Below, in pieces: positions 8,401 through 46,532 of a DNA stretch of 64,000 bases. The stretch's first letter is position 1. The number at the start of each line of letters is the position of its first letter. The position numbers and the translations under genes were made by a program. Location of the stretch: the NCBI GenBank assembly GCA_038231435.1, contig JBBRLJ010000001.1:160001-224000 (forward strand), given 5' to 3'. Below the pieces are notes generated by a model that worked only from the letters and a program-made list of their open reading frames with translations, was not told the origin of the DNA and did no database searches. Origin of the DNA: Planctomycetota bacterium. Lineage in GTDB: Bacteria; Planctomycetota; UBA11346.

Positions 8401-9042
8401 CTGCTCCCGCACCTGAACACGGCACAGCGCACCTGGCTGGTGACGGTGGTGTCGCGCGAGGCCGAGGCGTTCATCCATCCGCCGAGCGTGGCCGGGCAGG
8501 CGATCCTCGATCTGCTCGCCGAGGACCTCTCCGATCCGGTGCCGCCGCCGCTGCGCGACCTGCCGCTCGAGGTGGTGCGCCAGCGACGCTACGCCTGCCT
8601 GGGCCTGTTGCCCGAGCGCCATCCGCTGTGCCTGTGGCACCTGCCGAAGCGCGCGGTGTTCTGCCGCGACATCACCGCGCGCGCCGATCGCCGGCGCCTC
8701 TCGGTGATCGCCTGGCCGATCGCGCGCAAGCGCGTCAGCGCCACCTACAGCAAGGACGAGGACGGCGTGGAGCTCGACACCCCGCGCTTCGAGGCGATGT
8801 GCTTCGTCACCGTCGAGGACGAGACCGGCCTGACCGAGACCGTATGGTTCCCGGACGCGTACCGCGCCTATGGCGCACTGCTCGAGCGCGGCGAACCGCT
8901 GCGTCTCACCGGTACCGTCGCAGTCGCCTTCGGCTACCCCACGCTCACCATCGAACACGCTGACTGTCGGTGGGGGGCTACGGCCCCCCAACATCGGCCT
9001 GCCCCTACCGACCGGGGCCTTACGCCGGCCTGCCCCCCATGA
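5458..9042 (+). CDS. dnaE2: DNA polymerase III alpha subunit, DnaE2-like (probable error-prone copy)
   Basis: CGRGSGASS, FERFLSPER, PPDIDVDF, HCGGVVI, KVDVLG, SYQEDVM and FAGYSFCKAHSASYA motifs, plus a C-terminal OB-like FVTVEDETG. The PHP region is degenerate. Confidence 0.8.
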   Translation: MALPPLPTKPNQQLINHTLDHELHEEHDRRLSQARDLGRRIRARLAGWRLPLLAVRTTYSLLRGTASPEQWAQALVGLRGDDADSSLQAAKDRRGANHPSDQAAGGAVLAAVRALERARTSGAAVAGPARVQDAPTLAVRSDHDRDADSDGDADADAEPWAILADRDDVLGLPACIDHWGRGKVGIGATVELARGEGEDEDEDTLLLAPTETAYARLCLLLSWRHEEPEAWARWRRGGAARDGLDCTGLVALVRDEAWGRRLRDLGAEIWWRADVRPQQTPVAFPVASAPILTHHDDRGRAAAGILAAIRQRRTVRREDARHAGNALTDLCAMPAAYAGYEEQLDAGAALAARCRWLPGGQDEQGRPQLHLPPRGAGLFGRDIDPDALLRERAETGLVDRYQAQCDVARAAARARLEKELRIIADKRFAGYILMVWELADGHHTCGRGSGASSIVCYCLGITNVDPVKYHLVFERFLSPERIDPPDIDVDFAWDERDEVIGRTIARYGREHVAMVATHQGMHRWAALREAARAHGIPDGAIATMSQRLRESDLYGQGVEPPEPWPAIIAAADAIAGAPRHLGLHCGGVVITARPVRELVPVHPAAKSLEVPGHGRLRVPTIAWEKDGAEDLGFIKVDVLGNRSLAVLRDCLEDLEVDGNPLELLSWNPMEDERTKDIVARGATMGVFYVESPSMRQLQAKVGSPDFDRLVVHSSIIRPAGTNFIDTYIRRYHRSKETGGDVPEAELREWYPHPALRGLLSDSFGVLSYQEDVMLVSQALAGFGSKEANELRKALGRSDTGTRLQALANRFREGCLANGVAEDVLDWVWRMISSFAGYSFCKAHSASYAVVSFQCAYLKAHHPAHFMARVIANQGGYYHTAAYVEEARRLGVEIRGPCVLRSAWKTQREGAGAIRIGFQLVTGLSMATAEAIIRERSVVRRPSSVLGHQDGCPFRSLRELKSRCRIQADEMKALDDGGAFDALLPHLNTAQRTWLVTVVSREAEAFIHPPSVAGQAILDLLAEDLSDPVPPPLRDLPLEVVRQRRYACLGLLPERHPLCLWHLPKRAVFCRDITARADRRRLSVIAWPIARKRVSATYSKDEDGVELDTPRFEAMCFVTVEDETGLTETVWFPDAYRAYGALLERGEPLRLTGTVAVAFGYPTLTIEHADCRWGATAPQHRPAPTDRGLTPACPP
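8969..9038 (+). repeat. Dispersed palindromic (REP-like) element, copy A, inside the dnaE2 3' end
   Basis: GGTGGGGGGCTACGGCCCCCCAACATCGGCC...GGCCTGCCCCCC; matches the copies at 33.7k, 33.8k, 37.8k and 46.6k. Confidence 0.8.
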
Positions 9043-9173
9043 AGAAACGGCAAGTGCAGGTAGGTCAGGCTGACTGCGTCGCCTGAAACGGATCCTCAGT
9101 CCTTCGGATGTCCCATCTCTCCCTCCCGCTCTCCCCCTTCCACGCCTTCCGTCTTCGCCATCGTAGCGGTCCG

Positions 9174-9812
9174 ATGTTCGAGCCCGCCGTCACCCTGAGC
9201 GACTACGTCATCGCAGCCGAATGCGCGTGGTGCGCGTGGTGCTGCGAGCGCTGGCCCGGACGGTCGCGGCCGTGGACGACGCTGTTCTATGTATCGCTGA
9301 TCGTCGCTGGCGTGGTCGGCGGCACCTCGCACGGCTTCTATCCCACGGACGGCGAGCGCGTGCACGAAGCGTTGTGGACGGCGACCCTGCTGTCGATCGG
9401 CGTGACCGCGCTGGCGATGTGGGGGATCTGTGCGAGCGGCCTGAAGCGCCAGAGCTTCCGCTGGGTGGTCGGCACCGCGACCGCGCTGCTGGTGGCGTAC
9501 GCCATGGCGGTGCTGATCGGTGCGCGCGAGTTCAGGGTGGCGATCGCCTTCTACCTGCCGCCGGCAGCGGCGATGCTCGGGCGCTTCGCGTGGCTGTGGT
9601 GGCGCAGGCGCGACCGCCGCTTCGGCGCCGGCACCGCCGGCGTGGCCCTGACCTTCGTGGCGGCGGCGATCCAGGCCCTGCGCCTGGACCCGCATCCGTT
9701 GTTCGATCACAACGCGCTCTACCACGCGGTCCAGGCGCTGGCGCTGCTGGCGATCCTGCCGGCGGCGAAGGCGTTGGCGGTGGGCACAGAGAGGCCCGCA
9801 GCAAGAGTCTAG
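9174..9812 (+). CDS. Integral membrane protein (DUF6962-like)
   Basis: M.EP.VTLSDY N-terminus, GG.SHGF, several TM helices, C-terminal FDHNALYH.VQ. Confidence 0.7.
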   Translation: MFEPAVTLSDYVIAAECAWCAWCCERWPGRSRPWTTLFYVSLIVAGVVGGTSHGFYPTDGERVHEALWTATLLSIGVTALAMWGICASGLKRQSFRWVVGTATALLVAYAMAVLIGAREFRVAIAFYLPPAAAMLGRFAWLWWRRRDRRFGAGTAGVALTFVAAAIQALRLDPHPLFDHNALYHAVQALALLAILPAAKALAVGTERPAARV

Positions 9813-9932
9813 GAGATCGAGACGACAGGATGGAAGCGGGGCAGCAGCGATCAGAACCGATTGCAACCGTTGCACATCACCGCGTCCTTCCTGATGCCTG
9901 TTCCAACCGAATGTCCCGGCGAACCTCCCAGC

Positions 9933-9958
9933 GAACCTCCCGACGTCTGCTCCGTCTA
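9933..9958 (+). promoter_or_regulatory. Candidate ECF-sigma promoter (GAACCT ... CGTCTA; AAC-N16-CGT) for the RiPP operon
   Basis: AAC at 9934-9936 and CGT at 9953-9955, about 30 bp upstream of precursor ATG 9985 (GGAG RBS). Confidence 0.4.
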
Positions 9959-9984
9959 TCAGGTATCCTCCCCTGGAGCCTGCC

Positions 9985-10242
9985 ATGAAGATCCCCGACC
10001 ACGTCCTCGACCTGATGCTGATCGGCGCCATCGGCGCCGTCTGCTTCATCCCGCATGGGACCAAGGCCGCGGTCGCCGCGATGCCGACCACGAAGGCTCC
10101 CATCGCCAGCGTGGTTCCAGACGTCCCGCTCCACACGGATCCGGTGAACGCTCCGGGTTGCGCCATGCCCCGCGCCGATGCGCCCACGGTGGGCCGGCCG
10201 ATCGTCGCCCACGATCCCTGTCCCGGCTGCGGACGGGGCTGA
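9985..10242 (+). CDS. RiPP precursor peptide 1, chryseobasin-like (C-terminal DPCPGCGRG)
   Basis: 85 aa with hydrophobic leader MKIPDHVLDLMLIGAIGAVCFIPHG, a Pro/Ala-rich linker and a terminal CPxCGxG; lies just upstream of a DUF692 gene. Confidence 0.85.
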   Translation: MKIPDHVLDLMLIGAIGAVCFIPHGTKAAVAAMPTTKAPIASVVPDVPLHTDPVNAPGCAMPRADAPTVGRPIVAHDPCPGCGRG

Positions 10243-10244
10243 CC

Positions 10245-10499
10245 ATGAAGATCCCCGACCACGTCATCGACCTGATGCTGATAGGCGCCATCGGCGCCAT
10301 CTGCTTCATCCCGCATGGCGGGAAGCCGGCCCCCTCCGCGCTCTCGGCACGCTCAGCGGTGGAGACGGCTGGCGCGCCTGCTGGATGCGTGACACCGGTG
10401 CAGCCGCCGTCCGCAACTCCGATCGTCGGCCAACCTGCTCCGCCGGCGCGGCCGATCCGCTCCCGCGGCGACTATTGTCCGGCCTGCGGCATGGGCTGA
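10245..10499 (+). CDS. RiPP precursor peptide 2, chryseobasin-like (C-terminal DYCPACGMG)
   Basis: 84 aa; ATG 2 bp after the precursor 1 stop; near-identical leader; ends in CPACGMG, the ChrA core motif. Confidence 0.88.
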   Translation: MKIPDHVIDLMLIGAIGAICFIPHGGKPAPSALSARSAVETAGAPAGCVTPVQPPSATPIVGQPAPPARPIRSRGDYCPACGMG

Positions 10500-10503
10500 G
10501 CGG

Positions 10504-11427
10504 ATGCCCACGCGGCTGACGCCGGTGCGCGTGGGCCTGTCGTTGATGACGACGGAGGATTTCCGCGCCGCGTCGCTGCCGCTGTTCGCCGATGGCGTGG
10601 TCGATGCGCTGGAGTGGAGTCCAGACATGCTCTGGGCACCATGCGGGGAGCGCCATCCCGAGCCAGCGTGGTGCGCGGCGCTGCTCGATCACTACGAACA
10701 CGCGGGCCGACTGAGCGGACACGGCGTGCATCTGTCCGCCTTCTCTGCCGAGGCTCCCACGCGTCACGAACGCTGGTTCGCCCGCCTGGCAGGCGATCCC
10801 CGCCGCTACCGCCGCTTCTCGGAGCACGTCGGCTTCATGTCCGCTCCCGGCTTCGCCGATGGTGCGCCCCTGCCGGTGCCGCGCTGTGCCGAGACCGTGG
10901 CGCTCGGCGCTGCGGCGCTGACCCGCATCGCGCGTGTGACCGGCGTCCCCGCGGGGCTGGAGAACCTGGCGCTCGCCTTCAGCGAATCCGAGGCCTGGGA
11001 GCAGGGTCCGATGCTCGCGGACATCCTATCTGCGGCGTCGACGGCCTCGACGGCGGAGGCGCCGGCATTCCTGGTGCTCGATCTGCACAACCTGTGGTGC
11101 CAGGCGGTGAACTTCGCCATCGACCCCGAGCGCCTCCTGGCGGCTTTTCCCCTGGAGCGGGTGCGCGAGCTCCACGTCTCGGGCGGCAGCTGGTCGCATC
11201 CGCGAGCCGATCCCCTCGGACGGCGATTCCGTCGCGACACCCATGATGGCGCCGTGCCCGACGAGGTCCTCGCGCTCATCGAGCCGGCGCTGGCGCGCTG
11301 CCCGCTGCTCGAGGACGTATTCCTGGAGCGGCTCGGCGGAACCATGCTGACCGAAGATGAGCGTGGCGGATTCCGCACCGATTTCATGCGCCTGCGCGCG
11401 CTGGTATATGAGGCCGCGCATGCCTGA
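10504..11427 (+). CDS. DUF692 family multinuclear non-heme iron oxidative enzyme (MNIO, ChrH-like)
   Basis: HGVHLS, FSEHVGF, GLENLA, LDLHNLWCQ..NF, VRELHVSGG, RRDTHDGAVP and LERL iron-ligand motifs. Starts 4 bp after precursor 2. Confidence 0.9.
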   Translation: MPTRLTPVRVGLSLMTTEDFRAASLPLFADGVVDALEWSPDMLWAPCGERHPEPAWCAALLDHYEHAGRLSGHGVHLSAFSAEAPTRHERWFARLAGDPRRYRRFSEHVGFMSAPGFADGAPLPVPRCAETVALGAAALTRIARVTGVPAGLENLALAFSESEAWEQGPMLADILSAASTASTAEAPAFLVLDLHNLWCQAVNFAIDPERLLAAFPLERVRELHVSGGSWSHPRADPLGRRFRRDTHDGAVPDEVLALIEPALARCPLLEDVFLERLGGTMLTEDERGGFRTDFMRLRALVYEAAHA

Positions 11428-11692
11428 CCACGACCACCCCGCCATCAACCTTGCCACCTACCAGAGGCGCCTCTTGGAAGCGCTGCACCACGCCGATGTG
11501 GATTCGGACGGATATGCGATCGCGCGCGAGTTGCGCGCCGATCCGCTGCTCGCACCACTGGCGGAACGGATGGGGCGCTGGGAGCCGCGCAGCCTCGAGA
11601 CCGCGGCGGAGCTGGCGCGGCGATGGGGGCGAGTCGATCCGGCGACGACGGCCGAGGCGCCTCATTCCGATGGCACTCGCGATCAGACCTGA
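11420..11692 (+). CDS. Small (90 aa) putative MNIO partner protein
   Basis: ATG overlaps the DUF692 stop by 8 bp; helical, with LATYQRRLLEAL near the N-terminus and ELARRWG near the C-terminus. Confidence 0.65.
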   Translation: MPDHDHPAINLATYQRRLLEALHHADVDSDGYAIARELRADPLLAPLAERMGRWEPRSLETAAELARRWGRVDPATTAEAPHSDGTRDQT

Positions 11693-14600
11693 GCGTCGCG
11701 CCCGGCGCCGTTCGCCAGCGTCAGCCAGCGCTCCGCCTCCGACTCCCATGCGTCCCCGTCTCCCACCGTACCCTCGGCACTGGCAAAGAAGCGCCGGTCG
11801 AGTTCCGCGATGCGCGCACGCAGCTCCTCGCGCTGACGTTCGGCGAGACCCAGGGACGCATCGCCGTCGATGCGCTTGAGCAGGGATAGCACGGTGAAGG
11901 GCGTGAGTTTGCCCGGGCGCGCATGGCGCGGTCCTGATGCCACCACCGGTCTACGGCTTTGGCGCAGCCACCACCACAGGCTCGCCAAACCAACCACCGC
12001 GACGGCCGCGGCCACGACCCGCGACCAACGCTCGCGAGGGATCGCTCCGAGATCGAGCGGCACGTTGGCGATGGCGTCGACGATATCCGCGTCCACATAG
12101 CGCTTGTAGACCGCTTCCGTCCCGGCGATGCGCGCGACTGGGAAGCGGAATTCCGCCGTCGCGTCGCCGGAGCGGCGCTGGTAGTGCGCCTGGAAGCGGC
12201 GCTGGCAGAGGGCCGCGGCGTCCGGCGAGGCCGGGTCGATGGCGGTGACCACCAGCCCCTGGTCGTCGATCTTCACCCGCGTGAAACCAGGCACCTCGAG
12301 ATCGAGCAGGCGGTCGGGCTCGGGAAGGATGCCCTTGCCGTCGGCCTGGATCTCGATCGAGGCCTCGCCCTTCGCGAGTTCGCGCGTGTCCAGGGTCTGG
12401 GTGATCTTGAGGTCGCGACAGGGGCGCGTCGGCGCGTTATGTGCGCGGGCGTCGATGATCGCCACCGCCGATGACACCGGCAGCACCACCTGGCCCTGGC
12501 CGTCAGCGAAATCGAGATCGATCGGCACCGACGGCAGGCGATCGACCGAAGCGTCCTTGGCTTTCATCGCGATGTAGGCGAGTGGCGTCTCGCGCCAGCC
12601 CTCCTTGCCGAATCCGCGCGGGGCGATGTCCGGCTGGCTCCAGGCCAGCGAGATGATCTCGAAGCGCTCGCCGAGCGTGTCGCGCAGGCGCTTCTCGAAA
12701 TCGTTGCGGTAATTCACCTCCTCGCCGTTCTGGGTGTAGACCTGATTCTGCAGATAACGGTTGAAGCCGCCGCTCTCGCGGCCGAGCGCATCGCTGTAGC
12801 GCAGCGCGACACGGATCCCGAAGGCATGCTCGCCGACCGTCGAATCGCCGTCGACGGCGAGTGACAGCCCGATCTCACCAAGCAGATCGTCGTACGACGA
12901 CAGCAGCTGGCGCGCCTTCGCGCCGCTCTTGTGATCCCCGAGCACGCGCAGCGCGTTGCGCAGGTAGCGAGGCTTGAGCTCGGGAGCGATGGAACGCATG
13001 CGCATCTCGATCTCGGCGCCGAACAGCGCCAGGTGCTGGTCGGCGGCCTTCGCCGGCAGCGCCACGATGGCGGCGCGCACCTTCCCCACCTGGTCGACGT
13101 CGGCCTCCTGCTGCCGGGTGAGGTACCCCATGTCGCTCGCACCCAGGGCGGATTGGAACCACTGCACGTAGGCGTCGGCTGAGGGATCCTCGTCTGAAGT
13201 CGCCAGCCCCGCCGCGTACGATGCCGCCGCGCGGGCGAAGGCCGCGAAGGCGCGGTCGCGCAGGCCCGTGTACTCGGCGAGCGGCACCTTCTGCCCGTAG
13301 GCGAATTCGGCCTCGTCGAAGAGGATCGCCCCTTGACCGGATAACAGGCGCCAGTGGTCAGGAGCCTTCACCAGGGCGCTCTCGATCAACTGGTCGGCGA
13401 GCCGGTAGCCACGCCGCACCTCAGCGACGGTCTCGGCGTCGGTGCGCTTGGTGCCCGCCTGCTGCTGGACCTCGGGCTTGCGCCATCGGCCGGCTAGGCT
13501 CGAACGCATCGCCGAGACGATGTTCACCGATGCAACTGGCGGCAGATCTCGCACGTCGCCGAAGACGGCCGTGATGTCCTCGGCGCGGAATACCTCCGCG
13601 GGGCTGTGGCAGGCGGAGAAGGCCTGCACCTGCAGCTCGGGCGGCAACGGAGGCAGCGGCAGTTTGCGGAATTCGCCGAGCAGCTTGGCGAGCTCCGTGA
13701 GGTCGCGCGCCTGCCGCGCGCGCGTCAGCGGGATGGCGCTGCCGGCGTAAAAATAGCTGCGCCCCCCGCCATAGCTGCCATTGGTGCCCATGCCGTAGCG
13801 ATTGCCGCCGCCTCGGCCCTGGGCCCACACCTGCAGCAGATCCTTGGCGAGCTCGAAGGCACGTTGCTGCTCGTCGGGCGCGAGTTTCGCGATCAGCGCG
13901 AGCGCCTGATCGTATTCGCCCGAGCGCCCGACCATGCCGCCGATGATGCTGCGCAACCGTTGCGCCAGGGCGACATCGAGGTTGGCGAGCCATCCCGCCG
14001 ACGGTGCCAGGGTGAGGAGTTCAACCGCTGGGATGGGCGGGTGGTCGTCGTTGCCGTTGCCGCCTTGGTTCGCGTAGCTGTAGGAGTTGGAGCGCATGAT
14101 GCGGCGGCCGCCCCGGCGCATGGTGGAGCGCACGGGAGTCGCGCGCGAGAAACCCTGACCCTGGTCGTATTCGTCGCCCATCTGATTTACGGTAGCCCCG
14201 ATGCTGCCCTCGGCCTCGCGCAGCCAGCCGAGCGCCAGCAGATTGAGCGCCGGTCGCCAGCGCTCGGTATCGAGCGCAGCGGCCGCTAGCAGACCGTTCA
14301 CGACGCGCGCCTGCGTCCCCAGTGCCTGGATGCGCGCCATCACGTCGGGCGATTCGGCGAGCGCCTCGACCTGCGCCGCCACCGCCGCCAGCAGCAGGCG
14401 GCCCTGGGATGGCTTGCCGCCGAAGACCTCCATCAGCCAGGCGTTGCCGACGCCCTCGGGAAGGTTGGCGAGCAGATCGAGGCAGCGCTTGATGCCGGAC
14501 ATGCGCAGCGCCGACTGCTCGGGATCGGCGTCGCTCAGGTGCGCGAGCATCGCCTGGGTGAGATCCCACGCGCTGCGCAGCTGCTCCGGATCCTTCTGCG

Positions 14601-15423
14601 CCAGGCCCACGGCCATGCGGAAGCGCGCGTGCAGGTCGATGGTCGCGAGATCCTGGTTCTTCAGCGCGGGCTCGAGCGGCGGCAGGAAATGGCCGGCCTC
14701 GATGACGTGGTCTGAGGCCAGCAGCAGCGCCGCTGCGCGACCGCGCTTCTCCGGGCTCTGCCCGCCGAAGTGCTCGGTGCCGACTTCGAGCTGGGCGACC
14801 AGGCTGCCGCTCGCGCTCACCAGCGTGAGCGCGTTGCGCAGCAGATTGCCAAGCACCTGCAGCCGCTGGTCGGTGATCTCGCCAGGAGCGCATTCGCCCA
14901 AGGCGATGACGTCGGCGGGAAGCAGGACGGCGTTCTGGCACAGCTCGCCGAGCATGTGGTCGTAGACCTTGCCCTGGTCGTCGGCCGGCAGCGACGCGAT
15001 CACCTCGTGGACCCGGTCCCAGGCGCCCGCCTGCACAGTGATGACGAAGCGCTCGACGCGATCCTGGAGCGGATCCTTCGCGGGCTTGCGCGCGACACCG
15101 TCGGATGCCATCGCCACCAGCGCCATCGCCGGCATGCGCGGCAGCTTGACCTGCGTCAGCATCTGCAATAGCTGCTTCGCGGCGAGTTCGGCGGGCGTCG
15201 GCGGGGTCTGCGCCGGGGCGGTGTCGGCCTGCGGAGCATCATCTGATTCCTCCATCGCGGACAGGCTCGCGACCGGCGACGACAGGGCGATGGCGATCAG
15301 GCAGCCCACGCAGGCGTGGAGACGGATGACGCTGGGAATGCGCCCGGGCTTTTTGCCGGTGATGCGTCCGGTGATGCGTCCGGTGATGCTGAACGTGATG
15401 CTGCTCGCGGCGCGCTGGATCAT
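11683..15423 (-). CDS. Large exported alpha-helical protein with C-terminal TM, associated with the MoxR/vWA operon
   Basis: Signal-like CVGCLIAIALSS, about 1240 aa, TM VVAAAVAVVGLASLWWWL near the C-terminus; last gene of the operon. Start placed at ATG 15423. Confidence 0.75.
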   Translation of the reverse strand: MIQRAASSITFSITGRITGRITGKKPGRIPSVIRLHACVGCLIAIALSSPVASLSAMEESDDAPQADTAPAQTPPTPAELAAKQLLQMLTQVKLPRMPAMALVAMASDGVARKPAKDPLQDRVERFVITVQAGAWDRVHEVIASLPADDQGKVYDHMLGELCQNAVLLPADVIALGECAPGEITDQRLQVLGNLLRNALTLVSASGSLVAQLEVGTEHFGGQSPEKRGRAAALLLASDHVIEAGHFLPPLEPALKNQDLATIDLHARFRMAVGLAQKDPEQLRSAWDLTQAMLAHLSDADPEQSALRMSGIKRCLDLLANLPEGVGNAWLMEVFGGKPSQGRLLLAAVAAQVEALAESPDVMARIQALGTQARVVNGLLAAAALDTERWRPALNLLALGWLREAEGSIGATVNQMGDEYDQGQGFSRATPVRSTMRRGGRRIMRSNSYSYANQGGNGNDDHPPIPAVELLTLAPSAGWLANLDVALAQRLRSIIGGMVGRSGEYDQALALIAKLAPDEQQRAFELAKDLLQVWAQGRGGGNRYGMGTNGSYGGGRSYFYAGSAIPLTRARQARDLTELAKLLGEFRKLPLPPLPPELQVQAFSACHSPAEVFRAEDITAVFGDVRDLPPVASVNIVSAMRSSLAGRWRKPEVQQQAGTKRTDAETVAEVRRGYRLADQLIESALVKAPDHWRLLSGQGAILFDEAEFAYGQKVPLAEYTGLRDRAFAAFARAAASYAAGLATSDEDPSADAYVQWFQSALGASDMGYLTRQQEADVDQVGKVRAAIVALPAKAADQHLALFGAEIEMRMRSIAPELKPRYLRNALRVLGDHKSGAKARQLLSSYDDLLGEIGLSLAVDGDSTVGEHAFGIRVALRYSDALGRESGGFNRYLQNQVYTQNGEEVNYRNDFEKRLRDTLGERFEIISLAWSQPDIAPRGFGKEGWRETPLAYIAMKAKDASVDRLPSVPIDLDFADGQGQVVLPVSSAVAIIDARAHNAPTRPCRDLKITQTLDTRELAKGEASIEIQADGKGILPEPDRLLDLEVPGFTRVKIDDQGLVVTAIDPASPDAAALCQRRFQAHYQRRSGDATAEFRFPVARIAGTEAVYKRYVDADIVDAIANVPLDLGAIPRERWSRVVAAAVAVVGLASLWWWLRQSRRPVVASGPRHARPGKLTPFTVLSLLKRIDGDASLGLAERQREELRARIAELDRRFFASAEGTVGDGDAWESEAERWLTLANGAGRDAQV

Positions 15424-15476
15424 GGTCTTCCTGAGGGAGTCGTGGTTGGCGGGGCGGCCGGGTCCGAGGCGGATAG

Positions 15477-16346
15477 TCACGAACCATCCCCGTTGCTGCG
15501 GGCCTGCTGGCCAGCGGCGTTGGTCTGCTGCTTGATCTGCTCGCGAGCATCCTCGTCCTTCTTCTGCTGCTGCTGCGGGTTCGGCTTGTGGCCGTGACTC
15601 TCGCGCTGTTGACGACGGCGCTGGCTGAGGTTCTTGCTGTTGCACTTGCAGTTCGACGGCAAAGGCAGGCCCTGGAGCTCGCTGAGGTCCATGCGCTCGA
15701 GGCGCACGGTCGCTTCCAGATTCCTGCTCGCCGGGTCGGCCAGCGCGCCACCATCCTCGGCCAGCATGCGGAACTGCTGGCGCGCCTGCTCGGCATCGGG
15801 CTTCCATTCGTCGGGGCTCGCCCCCTCGAGGCGCATCAGCCACGCTGCCGCGTAGGACGCCGAGGCGAGTTCATGTCGGGCCTCGCGCGCGATCGCTTGC
15901 CGTGCGGGATCCGCGCTCGTCCCTTGGGACGATGCAGGCGAACCGCCATCCGACGAACTGGAGGACAAGCCGTCGACCAAGCTGTCGAGCTGGACGATGC
16001 CTTCCAGCAGTTCGCCCTGGTGGATGCGCGCGCGCGCCTGGTCGAGGGTGAGCGCGGCCACGGCCGGGGACAGGGCCCGGGGGTTCGCTGGTGCCCCCAC
16101 GGATCCAGCCGTGCTGCCGTCATGATCGGGGGCAGCGTCCGGAGCCTCGGCCTGAGCGAGCGTCGCCAGCGCCTCGCCGGCGGCCGTGGCGGCGGTTGCC
16201 CAATCGCCCTCCGCCGCCGCCGCGTGCGAGCGCTCGCGCTGCGCCGCCGCGCGGTCCATCAACAATTGGCGCTGGCCACCGCCGAGATGCCACGCGAGCA
16301 GCAGGGCGGGAGCGATCAGCCAGAGGAGCAGCAAGCATCTACGCAT
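15477..16346 (-). CDS. Hypothetical exported protein (BatC-like position, Gln-rich tail)
   Basis: N-terminal TM/signal, helical body, CxC then a Q/K-rich tail; overlaps the upstream vWA gene stop. Confidence 0.7.
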   Translation of the reverse strand: MRRCLLLLWLIAPALLLAWHLGGGQRQLLMDRAAAQRERSHAAAAEGDWATAATAAGEALATLAQAEAPDAAPDHDGSTAGSVGAPANPRALSPAVAALTLDQARARIHQGELLEGIVQLDSLVDGLSSSSSDGGSPASSQGTSADPARQAIAREARHELASASYAAAWLMRLEGASPDEWKPDAEQARQQFRMLAEDGGALADPASRNLEATVRLERMDLSELQGLPLPSNCKCNSKNLSQRRRQQRESHGHKPNPQQQQKKDEDAREQIKQQTNAAGQQARSNGDGS

Positions 16347-17355
16347 GGGTGGTCCTCGTGCCCTGGATGAAGCGCGCCGGCGCATCGGCGGCGGAATGGG
16401 GGCGGCTACGCGAGGGCCACGTGCTTCCCCACATGATCAGCGCCAGCGGCAGCACGGCTTCCACCGTAGCGCCCACGCCCAACGCCCACAGCGACCACCA
16501 GGCGAGTCCGGTGCGCAGCGGCTGGGCGGGCGCCACGGCGAATCCCGCGAGCTCGCTGCTGGGCAGATGGCGTGCATTGCCGTCGTGATACCGGCCGTGC
16601 AGCCGCGACGCGAGCTGGCGCAGCGACGCCGCGTCCTGGTGCGAGGCGTGGTCGGCGATCATGGTGCCGCGCGCGCAATCGCCGACGCCGATCACCATGG
16701 TGCTGGTGAACGCCGGCGGCAGGACCGGGGCGGCGGTCGCGGGCAAGGTGTCGCCGTCGCTCACCAGCATGAACGCGGCGGATCCCGGCCGCCAGGTCTT
16801 GGCGATCTCGGCGGCGCAGGCGACGCCATCGTACATGCGCGTCTTGCCGACCTCGAATGCGTATTCGAGCGGCAGATCGGCGAGCACGTTGCCCACCACC
16901 TCGGGATCGATGGTATCGACGACCACCGGCTTGGCGCCGCTATAGAAGGCGATGACGCTCACCAGCAGGTGACCACGATCGAGGCGCTCGAGAGCGGAGC
17001 GCACCAGGTCGCGGGCGCGTTCTCCACGCGTCTGGGCGCCGTCAGCGCCCGCGTCCGTGATGGTCATGCTCGGCGAGACGTCGAGCGCGATCACCAGATG
17101 CCGGGGCTCACCGCCGCGCGCCGCGCTCTCGCGCGGGTCCTCGTTCAGCAGGATCGCCAGGGCCCAGGCGATGGCGGTCGCGGCCACGACGCGGGCCGGC
17201 GCGGCCAGCGCCACCCAGGCGCGCGGACGCGCCGACGCGCCGAACGCCAAGCCGGCGATCCGCCGCACGCGCGCAGCGTGCATCCGCTCGGCGACCAGCG
17301 CGAGCAGGAACGCCGCCACGGCGACCAGGGTCGCGAACGTGAGCGGGCTCACCAT
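16339..17355 (-). CDS. vWA domain protein (BatB-like)
   Basis: MIDAS DVSPSM and VSDGD motifs; N- and C-terminal TM helices. Confidence 0.85.
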   Translation of the reverse strand: MVSPLTFATLVAVAAFLLALVAERMHAARVRRIAGLAFGASARPRAWVALAAPARVVAATAIAWALAILLNEDPRESAARGGEPRHLVIALDVSPSMTITDAGADGAQTRGERARDLVRSALERLDRGHLLVSVIAFYSGAKPVVVDTIDPEVVGNVLADLPLEYAFEVGKTRMYDGVACAAEIAKTWRPGSAAFMLVSDGDTLPATAAPVLPPAFTSTMVIGVGDCARGTMIADHASHQDAASLRQLASRLHGRYHDGNARHLPSSELAGFAVAPAQPLRTGLAWWSLWALGVGATVEAVLPLALIMWGSTWPSRSRPHSAADAPARFIQGTRTTHA

Positions 17356-18281
17356 GGAGTGAACCTCAACCCGAGCATGGTCAGCGAGCGCAGGCCGATG
17401 AGCGCCAGGCCGGCCGCGGCCCACGGCCAGCGATCGTCCACCGGCCGTGGCGACTTCGGCTTGAGCTTGGCTGGGCGCATCGCGTCGATGTGGCGGAAGC
17501 ACTGCTCGAGCCCGATCGGATCGCCCGCAGGGAAGACCTTGCCGCCGGTGGCGTTGGCGATGGTGTAGACCTCGGGCTGCGGCCCGCCGTCGCCGATGTA
17601 GACCATGAACACGATCACCCCCGCGGCTTTGAGGTCGTGCGAGAGATCCTGGGCGGCGGTGCCACCCAGGTCCGAGCTCTGGCCATCCGAGAGCAGGATG
17701 ATCATGCGGTCGCAGCCGTCGTCGCCCTGGGATTTCAAGGTCCGCAGGCAGGCCCTCAGGCCCTTGGCGATCTCGGTGCCGCCGAATTGCTGGGGCAGGT
17801 GGTCCGGGCGCAGCCACGGCGTGGCCTGGCGGATCGCCGCGCCGTCCTGCGTCAACGGCGTCCAGCGCAGCACCTCGTCGCCGAAGATGGTCAGGCCGAA
17901 GGCGTCGCCGGCGCGACGCGCGGTGAAACCGGCGATCGCCGCCATCGCGGCGTCGTAGCGGGATCCCTCGCCGCCGAACGGCGAGGTCATGCTCCCCGAG
18001 ACATCGAGGCAGAGCTCGATGTTGGTCAGGGCGCGTTCCTGCTCTGGCACGCCGAGGCGCTGGGGCTTGGCCAGCAACACGATCGCGAGCGCGAGCAGCA
18101 GCGCCGGCAAGAGATTGGCCGCGCGCACCATGCGTCCCAGCCAGGCGCCGGCCCCGCGCTCGGCTCCGAGTACGTGATCCATCGGCAGCACCACCGGATG
18201 CCCGCGGCGCCGCCACTCCCACGAGGCGAGCAGGATCGGCAGCGCCAGCAGCGACAGCACCCATGCGTGCGCGAACATCAT
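17349..18281 (-). CDS. vWA domain protein (BatA-like)
   Basis: F..AWVL.LL.LP N-terminus, DVSGSM, GDAFGL.IF, GGT.I..G, ILLSDG; ATGA coupling. Confidence 0.88.
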   Translation of the reverse strand: MMFAHAWVLSLLALPILLASWEWRRRGHPVVLPMDHVLGAERGAGAWLGRMVRAANLLPALLLALAIVLLAKPQRLGVPEQERALTNIELCLDVSGSMTSPFGGEGSRYDAAMAAIAGFTARRAGDAFGLTIFGDEVLRWTPLTQDGAAIRQATPWLRPDHLPQQFGGTEIAKGLRACLRTLKSQGDDGCDRMIILLSDGQSSDLGGTAAQDLSHDLKAAGVIVFMVYIGDGGPQPEVYTIANATGGKVFPAGDPIGLEQCFRHIDAMRPAKLKPKSPRPVDDRWPWAAAGLALIGLRSLTMLGLRFTPW

Positions 18282-19123
18282 GGCTCCGCCGCCACGACCG
18301 GAGCCTCGGCAATGGCCGGCGAGGCGCGATATGGAGCGAGCAGCGCATCGACGTCGACCGGTTCCGCCGATCCCGGACGCGCGTGCAGCCAGCGTTCCAC
18401 CTGGCGCAGGAGCGCTCCGGCCTCGCGATCGCAGCGCAGCGCGGCCAGGGCTTCCGCGGGCGGCAATGCGTCGAGCGCCAGCCGGCCGCGCCAATGGCCG
18501 ATCAGCAGACGTTCGAGGCGCGCCTGCTCGCGCGGTGGCATGGCGCCAGAGTGAGCGCGCGCGGCGAGTTCGGACAACTGCTCGGCGAGCGTGGGCTCCA
18601 CCAACGCGCGCGTCGGGGCCACCGGGGCCGCGCGCCGCCGGGCCAGCACCAGCAGCGGCAGGGCCGCCACCCAGGCGATGCCCGCGACCGCGAGCCAGCG
18701 GCGGTAGCCGCCGAGCGGCGGCTCGGCCGCCGCCGGCGCGTCGACCAGATCGTGGCTTTCGCCGGTGATCAGCGAACGCACGCGCACCGGCAGCGCGGGC
18801 AACGCTGGATGCGCGCCATCGGCGCCTATCAGGTAGTCGCGCAGGTCGTAAGTGCCCGGGACCGCGCCGAGGAAGCGCAGATCGTAGCGGGTCGCGCTCT
18901 CGGTGGCGGGCTCGGCGGCGGCGATGCGCACGATCAGCGGCGCGCGGTCGCTCACCGGGACGGCAGACAGGGGCGCGCCGGCGATGATCGCGGTGATGCG
19001 GCCCTCGATTCCCACGCTCGGAGCTGCCGCGCTATCAGCGGACGACGGAGCTGCGTCCGGCTGGGCGGCGTGGGCGCTCGACAGGCCGATGACGCATGCC
19101 GCGACGAGGGCGATGGCTCTCAT
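18278..19123 (-). CDS. Hypothetical exported/membrane protein of the MoxR-vWA operon
   Basis: Signal peptide MRAIALVAACVIGLSSAHA, a beta-rich domain, a TM helix and a helical C-terminus; ATGA-coupled at both ends. Confidence 0.75.
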   Translation of the reverse strand: MRAIALVAACVIGLSSAHAAQPDAAPSSADSAAAPSVGIEGRITAIIAGAPLSAVPVSDRAPLIVRIAAAEPATESATRYDLRFLGAVPGTYDLRDYLIGADGAHPALPALPVRVRSLITGESHDLVDAPAAAEPPLGGYRRWLAVAGIAWVAALPLLVLARRRAAPVAPTRALVEPTLAEQLSELAARAHSGAMPPREQARLERLLIGHWRGRLALDALPPAEALAALRCDREAGALLRQVERWLHARPGSAEPVDVDALLAPYRASPAIAEAPVVAAEP

Positions 19124-19986
19124 CGTGTCCCCCGTGTCCGATCGCGTTCGCGCAGGAAACCACGCACCCTGGCCATGAACGGCTGGTCGGTGGCGAGCTC
19201 GAGATGATCGATACCCGCACCGGCGAGCGCGCGCCCGGCGGCATCGCCGTCGTGCCAACGGCTGCGGCCGTGGGCGACGCGCGCCGAGCCGGTCTCGGCC
19301 TCGCGCGCGTCGATGATTCCGGCGCGCAACGCGCCGCGCTCGGCAGGATCGAGCAGACGCAACACCACCAGATCGTGGGCGAGCGCGATGCGCTTGAGCG
19401 CGGGCACGGCGCCTGGGTCGTGCAGGTCGCTGAGCACGATCACCAGAGTCCGGCACGGCAGCATCTCGCCCAGTTCGCGCAGCCGCTCGGCGAGGCGAGT
19501 GCCTTCGCCAGGCCCGATGTCCCCCGTGCGCAGCCGATGCAGCCACATGAATACCGTGGCCTGCGACATGCTGGGCGCGAAGCGCAGATCGCGCTCGCCG
19601 CCGCCCATCAGGCCTACGGGGCTGGCGCGGCCCAGGCCAGCGAGGGCGAGTCCGCCGGCGAGCTGCGTCATGAGCTCGTACTTGCTGAGCACGCCCGAGC
19701 CGACACGCATCGACGCCGAGGTGTCGGCGACCAGCTGAATGGGCATGCGCTTGAGCGTCTCGTATTCCTTGACGTGGAAACGGCGCGTGCGCGCGGTCAC
19801 CTTCCAATCGATGGCGCGCACGTCGTCGCCGTCGCAGAACGGCCGGCTCTGCGCGTAGTCGATGCCCGCGCCCAGGTACGAGGAGATGTCCGAACCGTGA
19901 TTGAGGCTGTCGGCGAGCCTCCTCACAGCGATCTCGAACGCCCGGGCGTCGAGCGGGCGACGCTCAGACGCGGCCGTGCTGGTCAT
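19120..19986 (-). CDS. DUF58 domain protein
   Basis: G.GIDY...R.F..GDDVRAIDWKVTAR, DTSASM and LSDL motifs. Confidence 0.9.
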   Translation of the reverse strand: MTSTAASERRPLDARAFEIAVRRLADSLNHGSDISSYLGAGIDYAQSRPFCDGDDVRAIDWKVTARTRRFHVKEYETLKRMPIQLVADTSASMRVGSGVLSKYELMTQLAGGLALAGLGRASPVGLMGGGERDLRFAPSMSQATVFMWLHRLRTGDIGPGEGTRLAERLRELGEMLPCRTLVIVLSDLHDPGAVPALKRIALAHDLVVLRLLDPAERGALRAGIIDAREAETGSARVAHGRSRWHDGDAAGRALAGAGIDHLELATDQPFMARVRGFLRERDRTRGTR

Positions 19987-21023: not shown

Positions 21024-21290
21024 GTGGACTCCGATGACGGCTAACGCCACCTGGGGTGATTCGTTCAGGCCCCGACGACACCGGGCTACGGGTGTCTACC
21101 ATGCCCCGACGCGCCCATCCGCACCCAGCCGAGCCAGGCGGACGAGACGGGTGTATAACAGGCCATTGCGTCTCCCGTGTAACAGGAAACGCAATTCAGG
21201 ACATGTCCTCTGGTGCCGGTGCCTCGGATGCCGGTGAAAAAGATGCCGGTTCCCCGGAAGGCCGAAAGGCCAGCCCACGGGCGCCGGCGA

Positions 21291-44582: not shown

Positions 44583-46532
<1,950 letters not shown>

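What the first reader, a model, noticed from the sequence alone, without database searches (positions are those of the whole stretch)
9933..11692. Chryseobasin-like MNIO (DUF692) RiPP cluster with two precursors, outside its described host group
Seen in the sequence: four tightly packed genes (gaps of 2 and 4 bp, then an 8-bp overlap). Two ~85-aa peptides end in DPCPGCGRG and DYCPACGMG, followed by a DUF692 enzyme with intact iron-ligand motifs and a 90-aa protein. Established: the MNIO ChrH (with partner ChrI, Chryseobacterium) modifies a C-terminal CPACGMG into a macrocycle with an imidazolidinedione and a thiomethyl group, and related MNIO products (methanobactin, bufferins) bind copper. 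Inference: this probable planctomycete makes two congeners, one with a CPGCGRG core, perhaps for metal or redox stress. Automatic annotation would probably miss or mis-start the precursors.
Basis: partly seen in the sequence, partly recalled or inferred. Interest (0 to 1): 0.88.

Follow-up and report, generated by a model that had tools for sequence, protein, structure and literature searches.

The report
Chryseobasin-type RiPP operon, split enzyme
An uncultured planctomycete carries a compact four-gene operon (two small peptides ending in CPxCGxG, an iron oxidase of the ChrH/DybH family, and that enzyme's detached small helical domain) that is predicted to cyclise the peptides' tails; it is an ordinary new member of a family described between 2023 and 2026.

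Summary
Four co-oriented genes sit at 9985-11692 with gaps of 2 and 4 bp and an 8-bp overlap. The two peptides (85 and 84 aa) end in DPCPGCGRG and DYCPACGMG. The 307-aa protein is an MNIO (PF05114) whose best named family is ChrH, and all six iron ligands mutated in DybH/ChrH are kept.

The interpretation needs correcting:
- The 90-aa protein is not a ChrI-type partner. It is the family's C-terminal helical bundle encoded separately, as published for MelHc. It matches the tails of fused homologues, folds as four helices and docks on the MNIO in a controlled model (0.92 vs 0.01).
- "Outside its described host group" is out of date. The 2026 PNAS paper already lists Planctomycetota, CPGCG cores and split enzymes.
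- The likely product is the unmethylated -4 Da macrocycle plus hydantoin (inferred). No metal role is known.
- Both precursors were already called as genes.

The split layout is common: 50 of the 84 related loci examined. This scan has met the same cassette type before in other genomes. The one odd feature is the N-terminal hydrophobic module. It is nearly identical in both peptides, is acidic and lacks a canonical lipobox, so the export route is unresolved.

The parts
9985..10242 (+). Precursor A1, 85 aa. It has an N-terminal hydrophobic module (residues 1-25), a Pro/Ala-rich linker and the C-terminal core C79-P-G-C82-G-R-G85.
   Evidence: ORF and translation. (one of only two CPxCGxG-stop ORFs in the genome). 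(already present as a called gene). (ChrA_rel_RiPP 10.7 bits, below the cut-off of 40).
10219..10239 (+). Core motif CPGCGRG of A1, the predicted site of macrocycle plus hydantoin formation.
   Evidence: The motif class CPxCGxG comes from PMC13056109. The exact heptad was seen in 0 of the 84 ORF ends counted in related loci, but G at x1 and R at x2 each occur there.
10245..10499 (+). Precursor A2, 84 aa. It has the same N-terminal module (23 of its first 25 residues match A1), a diverged linker and the core C78-P-A-C81-G-M-G84.
   Evidence: first 75 nt are 71/75 identical to A1; the rest is diverged. (ChrA_rel_RiPP 16.3 bits, ChrA 13.8 bits, both below cut-off)..
10476..10496 (+). Core motif CPACGMG of A2, the commonest core of the family.
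   Evidence: (CPACGMG in 16 of the 84 ORF ends counted). PMC13056109.
10504..11427 (+). MNIO catalytic core (H subunit), 307 aa. It is a TIM barrel with iron ligands H73, H108, E153, D193, N196, H224, D245, H247 and E275, and it lacks the family's C-terminal domain.
   Evidence: PF05114, E 1.9e-24. (NF050165 MNIO_ChrH 242.7 bits over profile positions 4-285 of 363; BufB 65.4 bits). (ligands). (model pLDDT 90; the top nine PDB matches are TglH, MbnB and 3BWW).
11420..11692 (+). Hc subunit, 90 aa: the separately encoded C-terminal four-helix bundle of ChrH-type MNIOs (MelHc-like). It overlaps the MNIO gene by 8 bp.
   Evidence: phmmer hits to the C-terminal ~60 residues of 8 of 19 fused homologues, best E 1.6e-9. 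(shared YQxxLL...EPRxLExAxELxxxWG). (hhalign probability 96.7, E 3.4e-10, to residues 316-375 of a 394-aa fused MNIO). (13 stand-alone relatives of 65-93 aa). (four helices, pLDDT 89-94 over residues 11-70). (docking score 0.92 against a best control of 0.01).

Best explanation
This is a four-gene operon of the ChrH/DybH/MelH branch of multinuclear non-heme iron oxidases. Its enzyme is split into a 307-aa catalytic barrel and a 90-aa helical subunit that are predicted to form a heterodimer. That heterodimer would oxidise the C-terminal CPxCGxG of the two adjacent 85/84-aa peptides into a macrocycle plus hydantoin (-4 Da).

Shown here:
- the gene layout;
- the family assignment of the barrel and its intact iron ligands;
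- homology of the 90-aa protein to the C-terminal domain of fused relatives;
- the two CPxCGxG-terminated peptides.

Inferred from published work on homologues (PMC13056109; bioRxiv 10.64898/2026.10.27.762324):
- The iron site uses O2 to oxidise the second Cys (C82 in A1, C81 in A2) to a thioaldehyde.
- The backbone rearranges to a hydantoin.
- The first Cys (C79 in A1, C78 in A2) closes the ring.
- The Hc subunit is needed for activity, as MelHc is for MelH.
- The two peptides would give two congeners, with Gly/Arg against Ala/Met at the variable core positions.

Also inferred: after modification in the cytoplasm, the shared N-terminal hydrophobic module likely takes the peptides to or across the inner membrane. 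Whether that is by signal peptidase I, as an uncleaved anchor, or by lipidation at Cys20 is open. The biological role is unknown, as it is for the whole family.
For: - Layout and motifs.
- MNIO domain: PF05114 E 1.9e-24.
- Best named family is MNIO_ChrH at 242.7 bits. The next are BufB 65.4, HvfB 50.2 and ApyH 27.2 bits.
- Ligands: all six ligand residues mutated in DybH/ChrH are conserved.
- Fold: the model has pLDDT 90, and the nearest solved folds are TglH (E 4e-16), MbnB and 3BWW.
- Hc is the family's C-terminal domain: phmmer to the tails of fused forms. The hhalign probability is 96.7 to residues 316-375 of P0075, and the ChrH model spans that protein to profile position 362 of 363. The four-helix model is.
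- Docking: ipSAE 0.92/0.91/0.92 against a best control of 0.01. That mark was reached by 116 of 157 solved complexes and 2 of 215 mismatched pairs. The runs agree in at least 90% of contacts and the partner pLDDT is 76-77. Foldseek found no solved fold like Hc (0 matches at E <= 0.001), so the pass is unlikely to come from a memorised complex. My own alignments were used, so the calibration counts hold only roughly.
- The docked Hc touches MNIO residues 80-83, 111-131, 157-163 and 231-244. These are the loops just after the ligand-bearing strands, at the mouth of the barrel.
- Family context: 67 of the 84 related loci have a + strand ORF ending CGxG-stop next to the MNIO. 50 of 84 have a separate Hc ORF and 28 of 84 are fused.
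- A locus that passes NCBI's ChrH cut-off (L046, 690 bits) is 39.7% identical to this MNIO. That is about the ChrH-DybH distance of 40% given in PMC13056109.
- Published chemistry on homologues, including CPGCGLG and a split enzyme: PMC13056109.
Against: - No chemistry or expression data exist for this locus. No RNA-bearing run was listed.
- The NF050165 score (242.7) is far below NCBI's equivalog cut-off (600). The same holds for the DybH-like loci (367-389 bits), whose type is experimentally validated.
- The tree was a quick, unfinished search. It places this MNIO only weakly (SH-aLRT 80) beside a split-only metagenomic group, and no well-supported clade holds it.
- None of 40 related Planctomycetota genomes has a close orthologue; the best is 38% identity. 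The cluster is therefore sporadic and could be decaying or recently acquired, although GC content is flat across it.
- The N-terminal module is atypical for a signal peptide. It has one Lys, two Asp and a short hydrophobic core, so export is less certain than in published cases.
- The exact heptad CPGCGRG was not seen in the 84 ORF ends counted.
Confidence: 0.85

Rival explanations
1. The mature products are lipoprotein-type 'DAG-RiPPs', like DybA. Cys20 of the shared N-terminal module would be diacylglycerylated by Lgt, and the signal would be cut by LspA, leaving a lipid-anchored macrocyclic peptide of about 65 residues.
For: - Both peptides keep a Cys at position 20, at the end of a hydrophobic stretch.
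- The genome encodes Lgt (three places over cut-off) and LspA.
- Precursors of the nearest MNIO group start with the same kind of N-terminus and carry canonical lipoboxes: L041 ...ATGC, L044 ...ASGC, L057 ...ASGC.
- DAG-RiPPs are published for this family (PMC13056109).
Against: - The residues before Cys20 are G-A-V and G-A-I. A beta-branched residue at -1 falls outside the usual lipobox, which has G/A/S at -1 (rule recalled, not from a call).
- In alignment A5 the column where relatives have the lipobox [AST]-G-C holds P-H-G-T/G in these peptides. The canonical Cys position is therefore lost.
- The n-region has K2 but also D5 and D9.
- The closest N-terminal look-alikes, the two precursors of L050, have no Cys at all.
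- Lnt was not found over its cut-off in an assembly that is 87.6% complete.
- A crude census of residues before N-terminal Cys in this genome did not discriminate.
Confidence: 0.25
2. The 90-aa protein is a substrate-recognition or membrane partner of the ChrI, MbnC/TglI (RRE) or DUF2063 type, not a piece of the enzyme.
For: - Most characterised MNIOs work with a separately encoded partner (PMC12452194, passages).
- The gene is translationally coupled to the MNIO.
Against: - It has no Pfam or NCBIfam family at E <= 1 except a chance-level HHH hit.
- ChrI is a DUF1772 integral membrane protein (PMC10214503), whereas this protein is a soluble-looking four-helix bundle.
- It aligns with the C-terminal ~60 residues of fused MNIOs.
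- Foldseek found no RRE or winged-helix match (0 hits at E <= 0.001).
- A role in substrate binding by this domain is not excluded, but that is a property of the family's own domain.
Confidence: 0.03
3. The cluster makes a copper-binding peptide of the bufferin, oxazolin or methanobactin kind (thiooxazole or oxazolone-thioamide) for metal stress.
For: - Many Cys-modifying MNIO products bind copper (PMC11626156 abstract; PMC13056109).
- Each peptide has two further Cys outside the core.
Against: - The BufB and HvfB models score 65 and 50 bits against 243 for ChrH.
- There is no DUF2063 or MbnC partner and no bufferin-type precursor signature.
- The C-terminal CPxCGxG is the ChrH/DybH substrate motif.
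- The DybH product has no UV-vis chromophore, and its function is stated to be unknown (PMC13056109).
- No metal-homeostasis gene lies in the operon.
Confidence: 0.04
4. The operon is a silent or decaying acquisition with no product in this organism.
For: - It is sporadic: no close orthologue in 40 related genomes.
- No RNA evidence is available.
Against: - All four frames are open, with high third-position GC (0.83-0.87 for A1 and the MNIO).
- All ligands are intact.
- Tight coupling is retained.
- The two N-terminal modules are kept 71/75 nt identical while the linkers have diverged.
- GC content equals that of the surroundings.
Confidence: 0.05

Closest known systems
MelA1 / MelH / MelHc of Candidatus Melainabacteria SJ512 (PMC13056109)
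   Same: The enzyme is split into an MNIO barrel plus a separately encoded small C-terminal helical domain that binds the barrel. In the published case that domain is required for the -4 Da modification of a C-terminal CPACGMG. The Hc gene follows the MNIO gene.
   Different: MelA1 is a 34-kDa TPR-type secreted protein, whereas the substrates here are two ~85-aa peptides. The host phylum differs (Planctomycetota, not Cyanobacteriota). I did not have MelH/MelHc sequences, so this likeness rests on architecture and on homology to fused tails, not on a direct alignment.
DybA / DybH of Dyadobacter crusticola and related Bacteroidota DAG-RiPPs (PMC13056109; bioRxiv 10.64898/2026.10.27.762324)
   Same: Short precursors carry an N-terminal hydrophobic signal and a C-terminal CPxCGxG. 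All six iron ligands mutated in DybH are conserved. The predicted chemistry is the same: a thioaldehyde, then a hydantoin plus macrocycle, unmethylated.
   Different: DybH is a single fused polypeptide. DybA has a canonical lipobox and is triacylated, whereas here the lipobox is not canonical. DybH-like loci are 38-44% identical to this MNIO and form a separate fused-only clade.
ChrA / ChrH (/ChrI) chryseobasin system of Chryseobacterium (PMC10214503)
   Same: The MNIO branch and the CPACGMG core (A2) are the same. NCBIfam's ChrH model is the best hit.
   Different: ChrH is fused. Its cluster has ChrI (DUF1772), an epimerase and an M42 peptidase, none of which is present here. ChrA is longer, SPI-secreted and S-methylated (+10 Da). 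The score here is 242.7 bits against an equivalog cut-off of 600.
HymA / HymH of Hymenobacter gelipurpurascens (PMC13056109)
   Same: The core has Gly at the first variable position (CPGCGLG) and was shown to be converted to the -4 Da product. This is the precedent for A1's CPGCGRG.
   Different: A1 has Arg, not Leu, at the second variable position. The HymH enzyme is fused.
MbnB/MbnC and TglH/TglI (solved MNIO complexes 7FC0, 7TCR, 7DZ9, 8HI7)
   Same: They share the TIM-barrel fold and the multi-iron ligand set (Foldseek E 4e-16 to 3e-09).
   Different: Sequence identity is only 15-22%. The partner proteins are unrelated (MbnC; the RRE-type TglI), and the chemistry and substrates differ.

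Membership tests
MNIO superfamily (Pfam PF05114, MbnB_TglH_ChrH) | The domain matches above Pfam's gathering score. | tested here: met
   86.8 bits against a cut-off of 25, E 1.9e-24, residues 60-276.
MNIO superfamily (Pfam PF05114, MbnB_TglH_ChrH) | TIM-barrel fold with the conserved His/Asp/Glu ligands for two to three irons. | tested here: met
   The AF2 model has pLDDT 90, and PDB ranks 1-9 are TglH, MbnB and 3BWW. H73, H108, E153, D193, N196, H224, D245, H247 and E275 are invariant in 28 homologues and align with DybH/ChrH ligands. Metal binding itself was not tested.
ChrH/DybH subfamily as described in PMC13056109 | An extra C-terminal helical bundle of about 7.8 kDa, either fused or encoded as a separate polypeptide. 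| tested here: met
   The 90-aa ORF overlaps the MNIO stop codon. It is homologous to the tails of fused forms, gives a four-helix model and has a docking score of 0.92 against a best control of 0.01.
ChrH/DybH subfamily as described in PMC13056109 | An adjacent precursor carrying the CPxCGxG motif, usually at the C-terminus. | tested here: met
   Two precursors directly upstream end in CPGCGRG and CPACGMG.
ChrH/DybH subfamily as described in PMC13056109 | Membership of the paper's sequence similarity network (alignment score 110). | not tested
   No SSN was built, and the paper's protein list (SI Table S2, Dataset 1) was not seen. Proxy evidence: the ChrH model outscores every other MNIO model 3.7-fold, and identity to a locus passing the ChrH cut-off is 39.7%.
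ChrH/DybH subfamily as described in PMC13056109 | Product: a macrocycle plus hydantoin, from a four-electron oxidation (-4 Da, or +10 Da if S-methylated). | not testable with these tools
   This needs co-expression followed by MS and NMR.
NCBIfam NF050165 MNIO_ChrH (equivalog) | Whole-protein score of at least 600 bits. | tested here: not met
   The score is 242.7 bits over profile positions 4-285 of 363. Only the Chryseobacterium-type locus L046 passes (690 bits). DybH-like loci score 367-389 bits. This locus is therefore not a ChrH equivalog in NCBI's narrow sense.
NCBIfam NF050125 / NF050124 (ChrA-related / ChrA precursor) | Score of at least 40 or 50 bits respectively. | tested here: not met
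   A2 scores 16.3 and 13.8 bits and A1 scores 10.7 bits. Only the last 11-14 residues match.
DAG-RiPP (RiPP-lipoprotein hybrid, PMC13056109) | A signal peptidase II signal with a canonical lipobox before the conserved Cys. | tested here: not met
   G-A-V-C and G-A-I-C have a beta-branched residue at -1. The n-region has two Asp. In alignment A5 the relatives' lipobox column is P-H-G-T/G here. No SignalP-type predictor was available, and the lipobox rule is recalled.
DAG-RiPP (RiPP-lipoprotein hybrid, PMC13056109) | The host has the lipoprotein pathway (Lgt, LspA, Lnt). | tested here: inconclusive
   Lgt and LspA are found over their cut-offs. Lnt scores only 35.6 bits against a cut-off of 132.9, in an assembly that is 87.6% complete.
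ChrHI-type system (PMC10214503) | A DUF1772 (Anthrone_oxy) integral membrane partner, ChrI, in the cluster. | tested here: not met
   None of the four proteins or the upstream neighbour hits DUF1772. The neighbour is DUF6962.
Bufferin / oxazolin / methanobactin systems | A DUF2063 or MbnC partner and a matching precursor family. | tested here: not met
   No such Pfam or NCBIfam hits were found. The BufB and HvfB models score 65 and 50 bits against cut-offs of 310 and 360.

The most novel reading that the evidence does not exclude
The N-terminus of the small precursors may be more than a generic export signal. A start of the form M-[KRH]-[LIV]-[PS]-x-x-[LVM]-L recurs in precursors of fused and split enzymes, and with lipobox, SPI-like and anchor-like continuations. 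It could therefore be a second functional element of the family: a docking or dedicated targeting leader. In this planctomycete it has been remodelled into an acidic, lipobox-less, Cys-bearing membrane segment that is held almost identical at the DNA level in both paralogues. That would give membrane-tethered macrocycles by a route that is neither the published SPI nor the published SPII path.
Probability: 0.15. Interest if true: 0.55.

Novelty: new member of a known kind. Interest (0 to 1): 0.3.

Why it matters
For the family:
- It adds a Planctomycetota example with a split enzyme and two tandem precursors.
- It adds a CPGCGRG core. The family's chemistry is published, but its biological role is still unknown.

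For annotation:
- The small ORF after such MNIOs should be read as the enzyme's own detached domain and included in any expression construct. The published MelH was inactive without MelHc.
- NCBI's ChrH and ChrA models are too narrow to name these genes.

The only open thread is what the conserved N-terminal module does.

Tried and rejected
- **Expression:** The look-up of sequencing runs listed five DNA holders in two studies and no RNA holder. No reads were laid.
- **Promoters and terminators:** the sigma-70 scan of 9000-12200 found 0 promoter-like sites, and its one terminator-like site was at chance level. This is uninformative for this phylum.
- **Precursor relatives by word search:** of 4 candidates, only the two precursors themselves matched.
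- **N-terminal 30 residues by phmmer:** run against all six-frame ORFs of the genome and of the 84 loci. Nothing but the two peptides scored below E 1. The family-wide N-terminal likeness therefore rests on a hand-made pattern and an alignment, not on a significant pairwise score.
- **Residues before N-terminal Cys in this genome:** the census did not separate coding-like ORFs from control ORFs. G/A/S made up 187 of 328 against 48 of 76, and V/I made up 46 of 328 against 7 of 76. I rejected it as a test of lipobox usage.
- **Neighbouring genes:** tblastn of the DUF6962 protein and the 1386-aa protein found no match in the 84 related loci, so they are not counted as cluster members.
- **Recent transfer:** GC content is flat at 0.67-0.72 across 5-17 kb, so there is no compositional sign of it.
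- **ESM Atlas for the 90-aa protein:** no usable hit.
- **Foldseek of the 90-aa model against the PDB:** 0 matches at E <= 0.001.
- **Tree:** the careful search did not finish in 288 s, so only the quick tree is reported.
- **Genome-contig scan with the single protein:** only 4 loci were returned. Two Planctomycetota MAG loci proved to be a distant, different type.
Full report
**What is in the sequence.** Four + strand ORFs lie between 9985 and 11692:
- Precursor A1: 9985-10242, 85 aa, ending ...AHDPCPGCGRG.
- Precursor A2: 10245-10499, 84 aa, ending ...RGDYCPACGMG.
- A 307-aa protein: 10504-11427.
- A 90-aa protein: 11420-11692.

Upstream, after a 172-bp gap, lies a DUF6962 membrane protein (9108-9812). 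Downstream, a 1386-aa protein with no family hit is encoded on the other strand, and its 3' end overlaps by 10 bp. The unit is therefore these four genes.

In the whole 5.2-Mb assembly (87.6% complete) the six-frame translation holds 105 CPxCG strings. Only these two end an ORF as CPxCGxG-stop. The genome has two PF05114 genes, this one and a second on another contig.

**The organism.** The window's DnaK (44583-46532) is 91% identical to its best relative. Every organism-bearing name among the 120 listed hits reads Planctomycetes or Planctomycetota bacterium. This agrees with earlier notes of this scan on the same genome.

**The enzyme.**
- The 307-aa protein matches PF05114 at E 1.9e-24.
- Among NCBIfam models it scores 242.7 bits with MNIO_ChrH, 65.4 with BufB, 50.2 with HvfB and 27.2 with ApyH.
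- The ChrH match covers profile positions 4-285 of 363, so the last ~78 positions of the model are missing from this polypeptide.
- The score is below NCBI's equivalog cut-off of 600. So are loci with DybA-like lipobox precursors (367-389 bits). Only a Chryseobacterium-type locus passes (L046, 690 bits).
- In an alignment with ten full-length Bacteroidota-type ORFs, H73, H108, D193, H224, D245 and H247 fall on the columns that carry H65, H102, D179 and H210 in three of them, and D228 and H230 in L046.
- These are the numbers of the ligands mutated in DybH and ChrH (bioRxiv 10.64898/2026.10.27.762324; outline and first part of the main text read).
- These residues, with E153, N196 and E275, are invariant in 28 homologues.
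- An AlphaFold2 model (pLDDT 90, pTM 0.91) is a beta/alpha barrel. Its nine best PDB matches are TglH, MbnB and 3BWW (E 4e-16 to 3e-09). By sequence only TglH and 3BWW are found.

**The 90-aa protein.**
- It has no Pfam or NCBIfam family.
- The MNIO's 120 best homologues fall into two length classes: 19 are 364-419 aa and the rest are 275-325 aa.
- phmmer with the 90-aa protein hits the C-terminal ~60 residues of 8 of the 19 long forms at E < 1e-3 (best 1.6e-9, in that set of 123 sequences). It hits no short form below E 0.06.
- The shared pattern is visible in the alignment: YQxxLL ... EPRxLExAxELxxxWG.
- Against 1.84 billion representatives it finds 15 other proteins at E <= 1e-3. Thirteen are stand-alone proteins of 65-93 aa, one is a 385-aa fused form matched at residues 326-383, and one is a repetitive 1962-aa protein that I discount.
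- A profile of 14 stand-alone forms aligns to residues 316-375 of a 394-aa MNIO with probability 96.7%. The source names that MNIO Paraliomyxa miuraensis. NCBI's ChrH model spans the same protein to profile position 362 of 363.
- The 90-aa protein is therefore the ChrH-type C-terminal domain encoded on its own.
- Its model has four helices (residues 11-24, 31-39, 42-51, 56-69; pLDDT 89-94 over 11-70). It has no solved structural relative by Foldseek (0 hits at E <= 0.001).
- Folded together with the MNIO it scores 0.92, 0.91 and 0.92, against 0.01 for the best of three controls.
- That mark was reached by 116 of 157 solved complexes and 2 of 215 mismatched pairs. The runs agree in at least 90% of contacts, and the partner pLDDT is 76-77. 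My own alignments were used, so the counts hold only roughly.
- The contacts lie on MNIO loops 80-83, 111-131, 157-163 and 231-244, at the ligand end of the barrel.

The model supports binding but does not show it. The published precedent is MelH/MelHc: MelHc co-purifies with MelH and is required for modification (PMC13056109; abstract, parts 1-3 of 7 and searched passages read).

**How common this layout is.**
- A scan of metagenome contigs gave 328 confirmed relatives. The best 80 were kept (37-52% identity).
- With four loci from species genomes this makes 84 loci.
- Of these, 50 have the Hc homologue as a separate ORF at or overlapping the MNIO stop. Another 28 are fused. In 6 no Hc was detected.
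- 67 of the 84 have a + strand ORF ending in CGxG-stop beside the MNIO. Seven of the other 17 have under 250 nt of upstream sequence.
- Up to 14 loci have two or more such ORFs, some possibly spurious. Two clear tandem pairs with CPxCG are L074 and L078.
- So the split enzyme and tandem precursors are ordinary in this family.
- In a quick tree (the careful search did not finish) this MNIO sits with weak support (SH-aLRT 80) beside a split-only group of seven metagenomic loci. It is apart from a fused-only clade of 15 that holds the ChrH- and DybH-like loci (SH-aLRT 95).
- Two Planctomycetota MAG loci are a distant, different type. Their MNIOs lack a detectable Hc, and the neighbouring large proteins have DPCPGCGMG embedded 22 residues from the end.
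- Among 40 related genomes (24 of the same family) none has a close orthologue. The best is 38% identity. The closest protein anywhere is 76% identical, on a 1751-bp contig.

**The precursors.**
- A1 and A2 are 23/25 identical over the first 25 residues and 71/75 identical in the DNA there. Behind that they are diverged, until the core.
- Each has four Cys: Cys20, one mid-peptide Cys and two in the core.
- The N-terminal module (MKIPDHV[L/I]DLMLIGAIGA[V/I]CFIPHG) is hydrophobic but has two Asp and only one Lys.
- The three residues before Cys20 are G-A-V and G-A-I. This is not a canonical lipobox (that rule is recalled, not from a call).
- In an alignment with 13 precursors from related loci, the start M-x-[LI]-P-x-x-[LVM]-[LM] is shared. 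At the column where the sister-group precursors have [AST]-G-C, these two have P-H-G-T/G.
- The nearest look-alikes, the two precursors of L050, have no Cys in this region.
- The host has Lgt and LspA. Lnt was not found over its cut-off.
- I therefore treat export or membrane insertion as likely and lipidation as possible but not favoured (about one in four).
- Both precursor sequences are present, with these exact starts, in the public protein collection. The 90-aa protein is present likewise. Gene callers did find them.
- NCBI's precursor models do not reach their cut-offs.

**Mechanism.** The chemistry is inferred from homologues. ChrH, DybH, ChsH, HymH, ArlH and MelH/MelHc all act on the CPxCGxG motif. 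All but ChrH, and partly ArlH, give an unmethylated -4 Da product with a macrocycle and a hydantoin (PMC13056109). The first step is oxidation of the second Cys to a thioaldehyde, and the first Cys closes the ring last (bioRxiv 10.64898/2026.10.27.762324). By analogy C82 (A1) and C81 (A2) are oxidised, and C79 and C78 close the ring. This gives two congeners that differ at Gly/Ala and Arg/Met. HymA (CPGCGLG) is the precedent for Gly. CPACGRG is frequent in the related loci (10 of 84 ORF ends). The exact heptad CPGCGRG was not among the 84.

**What is known, and novelty.**
- PMC13056109 states that smaller SSN clusters of the ChrH subfamily come from Cyanobacteriota, Myxococcota and Planctomycetota. 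It also states that the motif is CPxCGxG, that the C-terminal domain is a separate polypeptide in Cyanobacteriota, and that ChrI is dispensable.
- A full-text search for MNIO together with Planctomycet* found 5 papers, of which 3 were listed: this paper, its preprint and a bufferin preprint. No paper dedicated to a planctomycete cluster was found in that library.
- I did not see the paper's supplementary protein list, which may already contain this protein or its relatives.
- This scan has already reported the same cassette type in an Acidimicrobiales genome, an Acaryochloris genome, an Omnitrophota genome and one further genome.
- The finding is a correct identification of a known kind. Its new elements are small: the phylum-level host, the split form outside Cyanobacteriota (common in metagenomes), a new core variant and an unusual N-terminal module.

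**Verdict.** This is a new member of a known kind, with interest 0.3.

Noticed in passing
L019-L098 and window 9985-10059, 10245-10319: Small precursors across the family share an N-terminal start of the form M-[KRHNQ]-[LIV]-[PS]-x-x-[LVMI]-L. It is found in a precursor ORF of 25 of 65 loci (a looser form in 35 of 65). In this genome's coding-like ORFs it occurs in 7 of 4131 (the looser form in 96). It appears whether the peptide continues with a lipobox, an SPI-like site or an anchor-like segment. The pattern was made by eye, and pairwise searches are not significant.
   Followed up: partly
L020-L097 (ORFs just upstream of the MNIO): The core motif is more varied than CPxCGxG. CGPCGMG or CGPCGLG occurs in 10 ORF ends, and 20 of the 84 counted ORF ends have only one Cys in the last seven residues (for example PPPCGRG, AVDCGRG, MVKCGMG). 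The constant part is CG-x-G-stop. Some of these ORFs may be spurious alternative frames.
   Followed up: partly
L003:2550-3815 and L004:2-2659: Two Planctomycetota MAGs encode large proteins (open frames of 421 and 885 aa) with DPCPGCGMGY embedded 22 residues before the end, next to a divergent MNIO. That MNIO sits on a long branch and has no detectable Hc. The ChrH and BufB models score almost equally on the one tested, L003 (121 against 114 bits).
   Followed up: partly
G000:C19:54808-55587 (locus L005): There is a second MNIO gene in the same genome, with a much stronger PF05114 match (351.5 bits, E 5e-105). No CGxG-stop ORF lies in the 3.8-kb locus. Its precursor and type were not examined.
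   Followed up: no
L008:449-1432 (same-genus genome G001): Another MNIO, 38% identical to this one, is preceded by an open frame that ends in a Cys/Gly-rich run (...SCGSGGGCGGGGCGGCGGG). This could be a different precursor type or a GC-rich frame artefact.
   Followed up: no
window 11683-21050, - strand: The convergent neighbour is a MoxR AAA ATPase - DUF58 - VWA gene set. It ends in a 1386-aa protein with no Pfam family. It is not conserved beside related MNIO loci.
   Followed up: no
window 9108-9812, + strand: A DUF6962 multi-pass membrane protein lies 172 bp upstream on the same strand. It is not DUF1772 (ChrI) and is not found in the 84 related loci, so it is probably unrelated. Co-transcription was not excluded.
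   Followed up: partly
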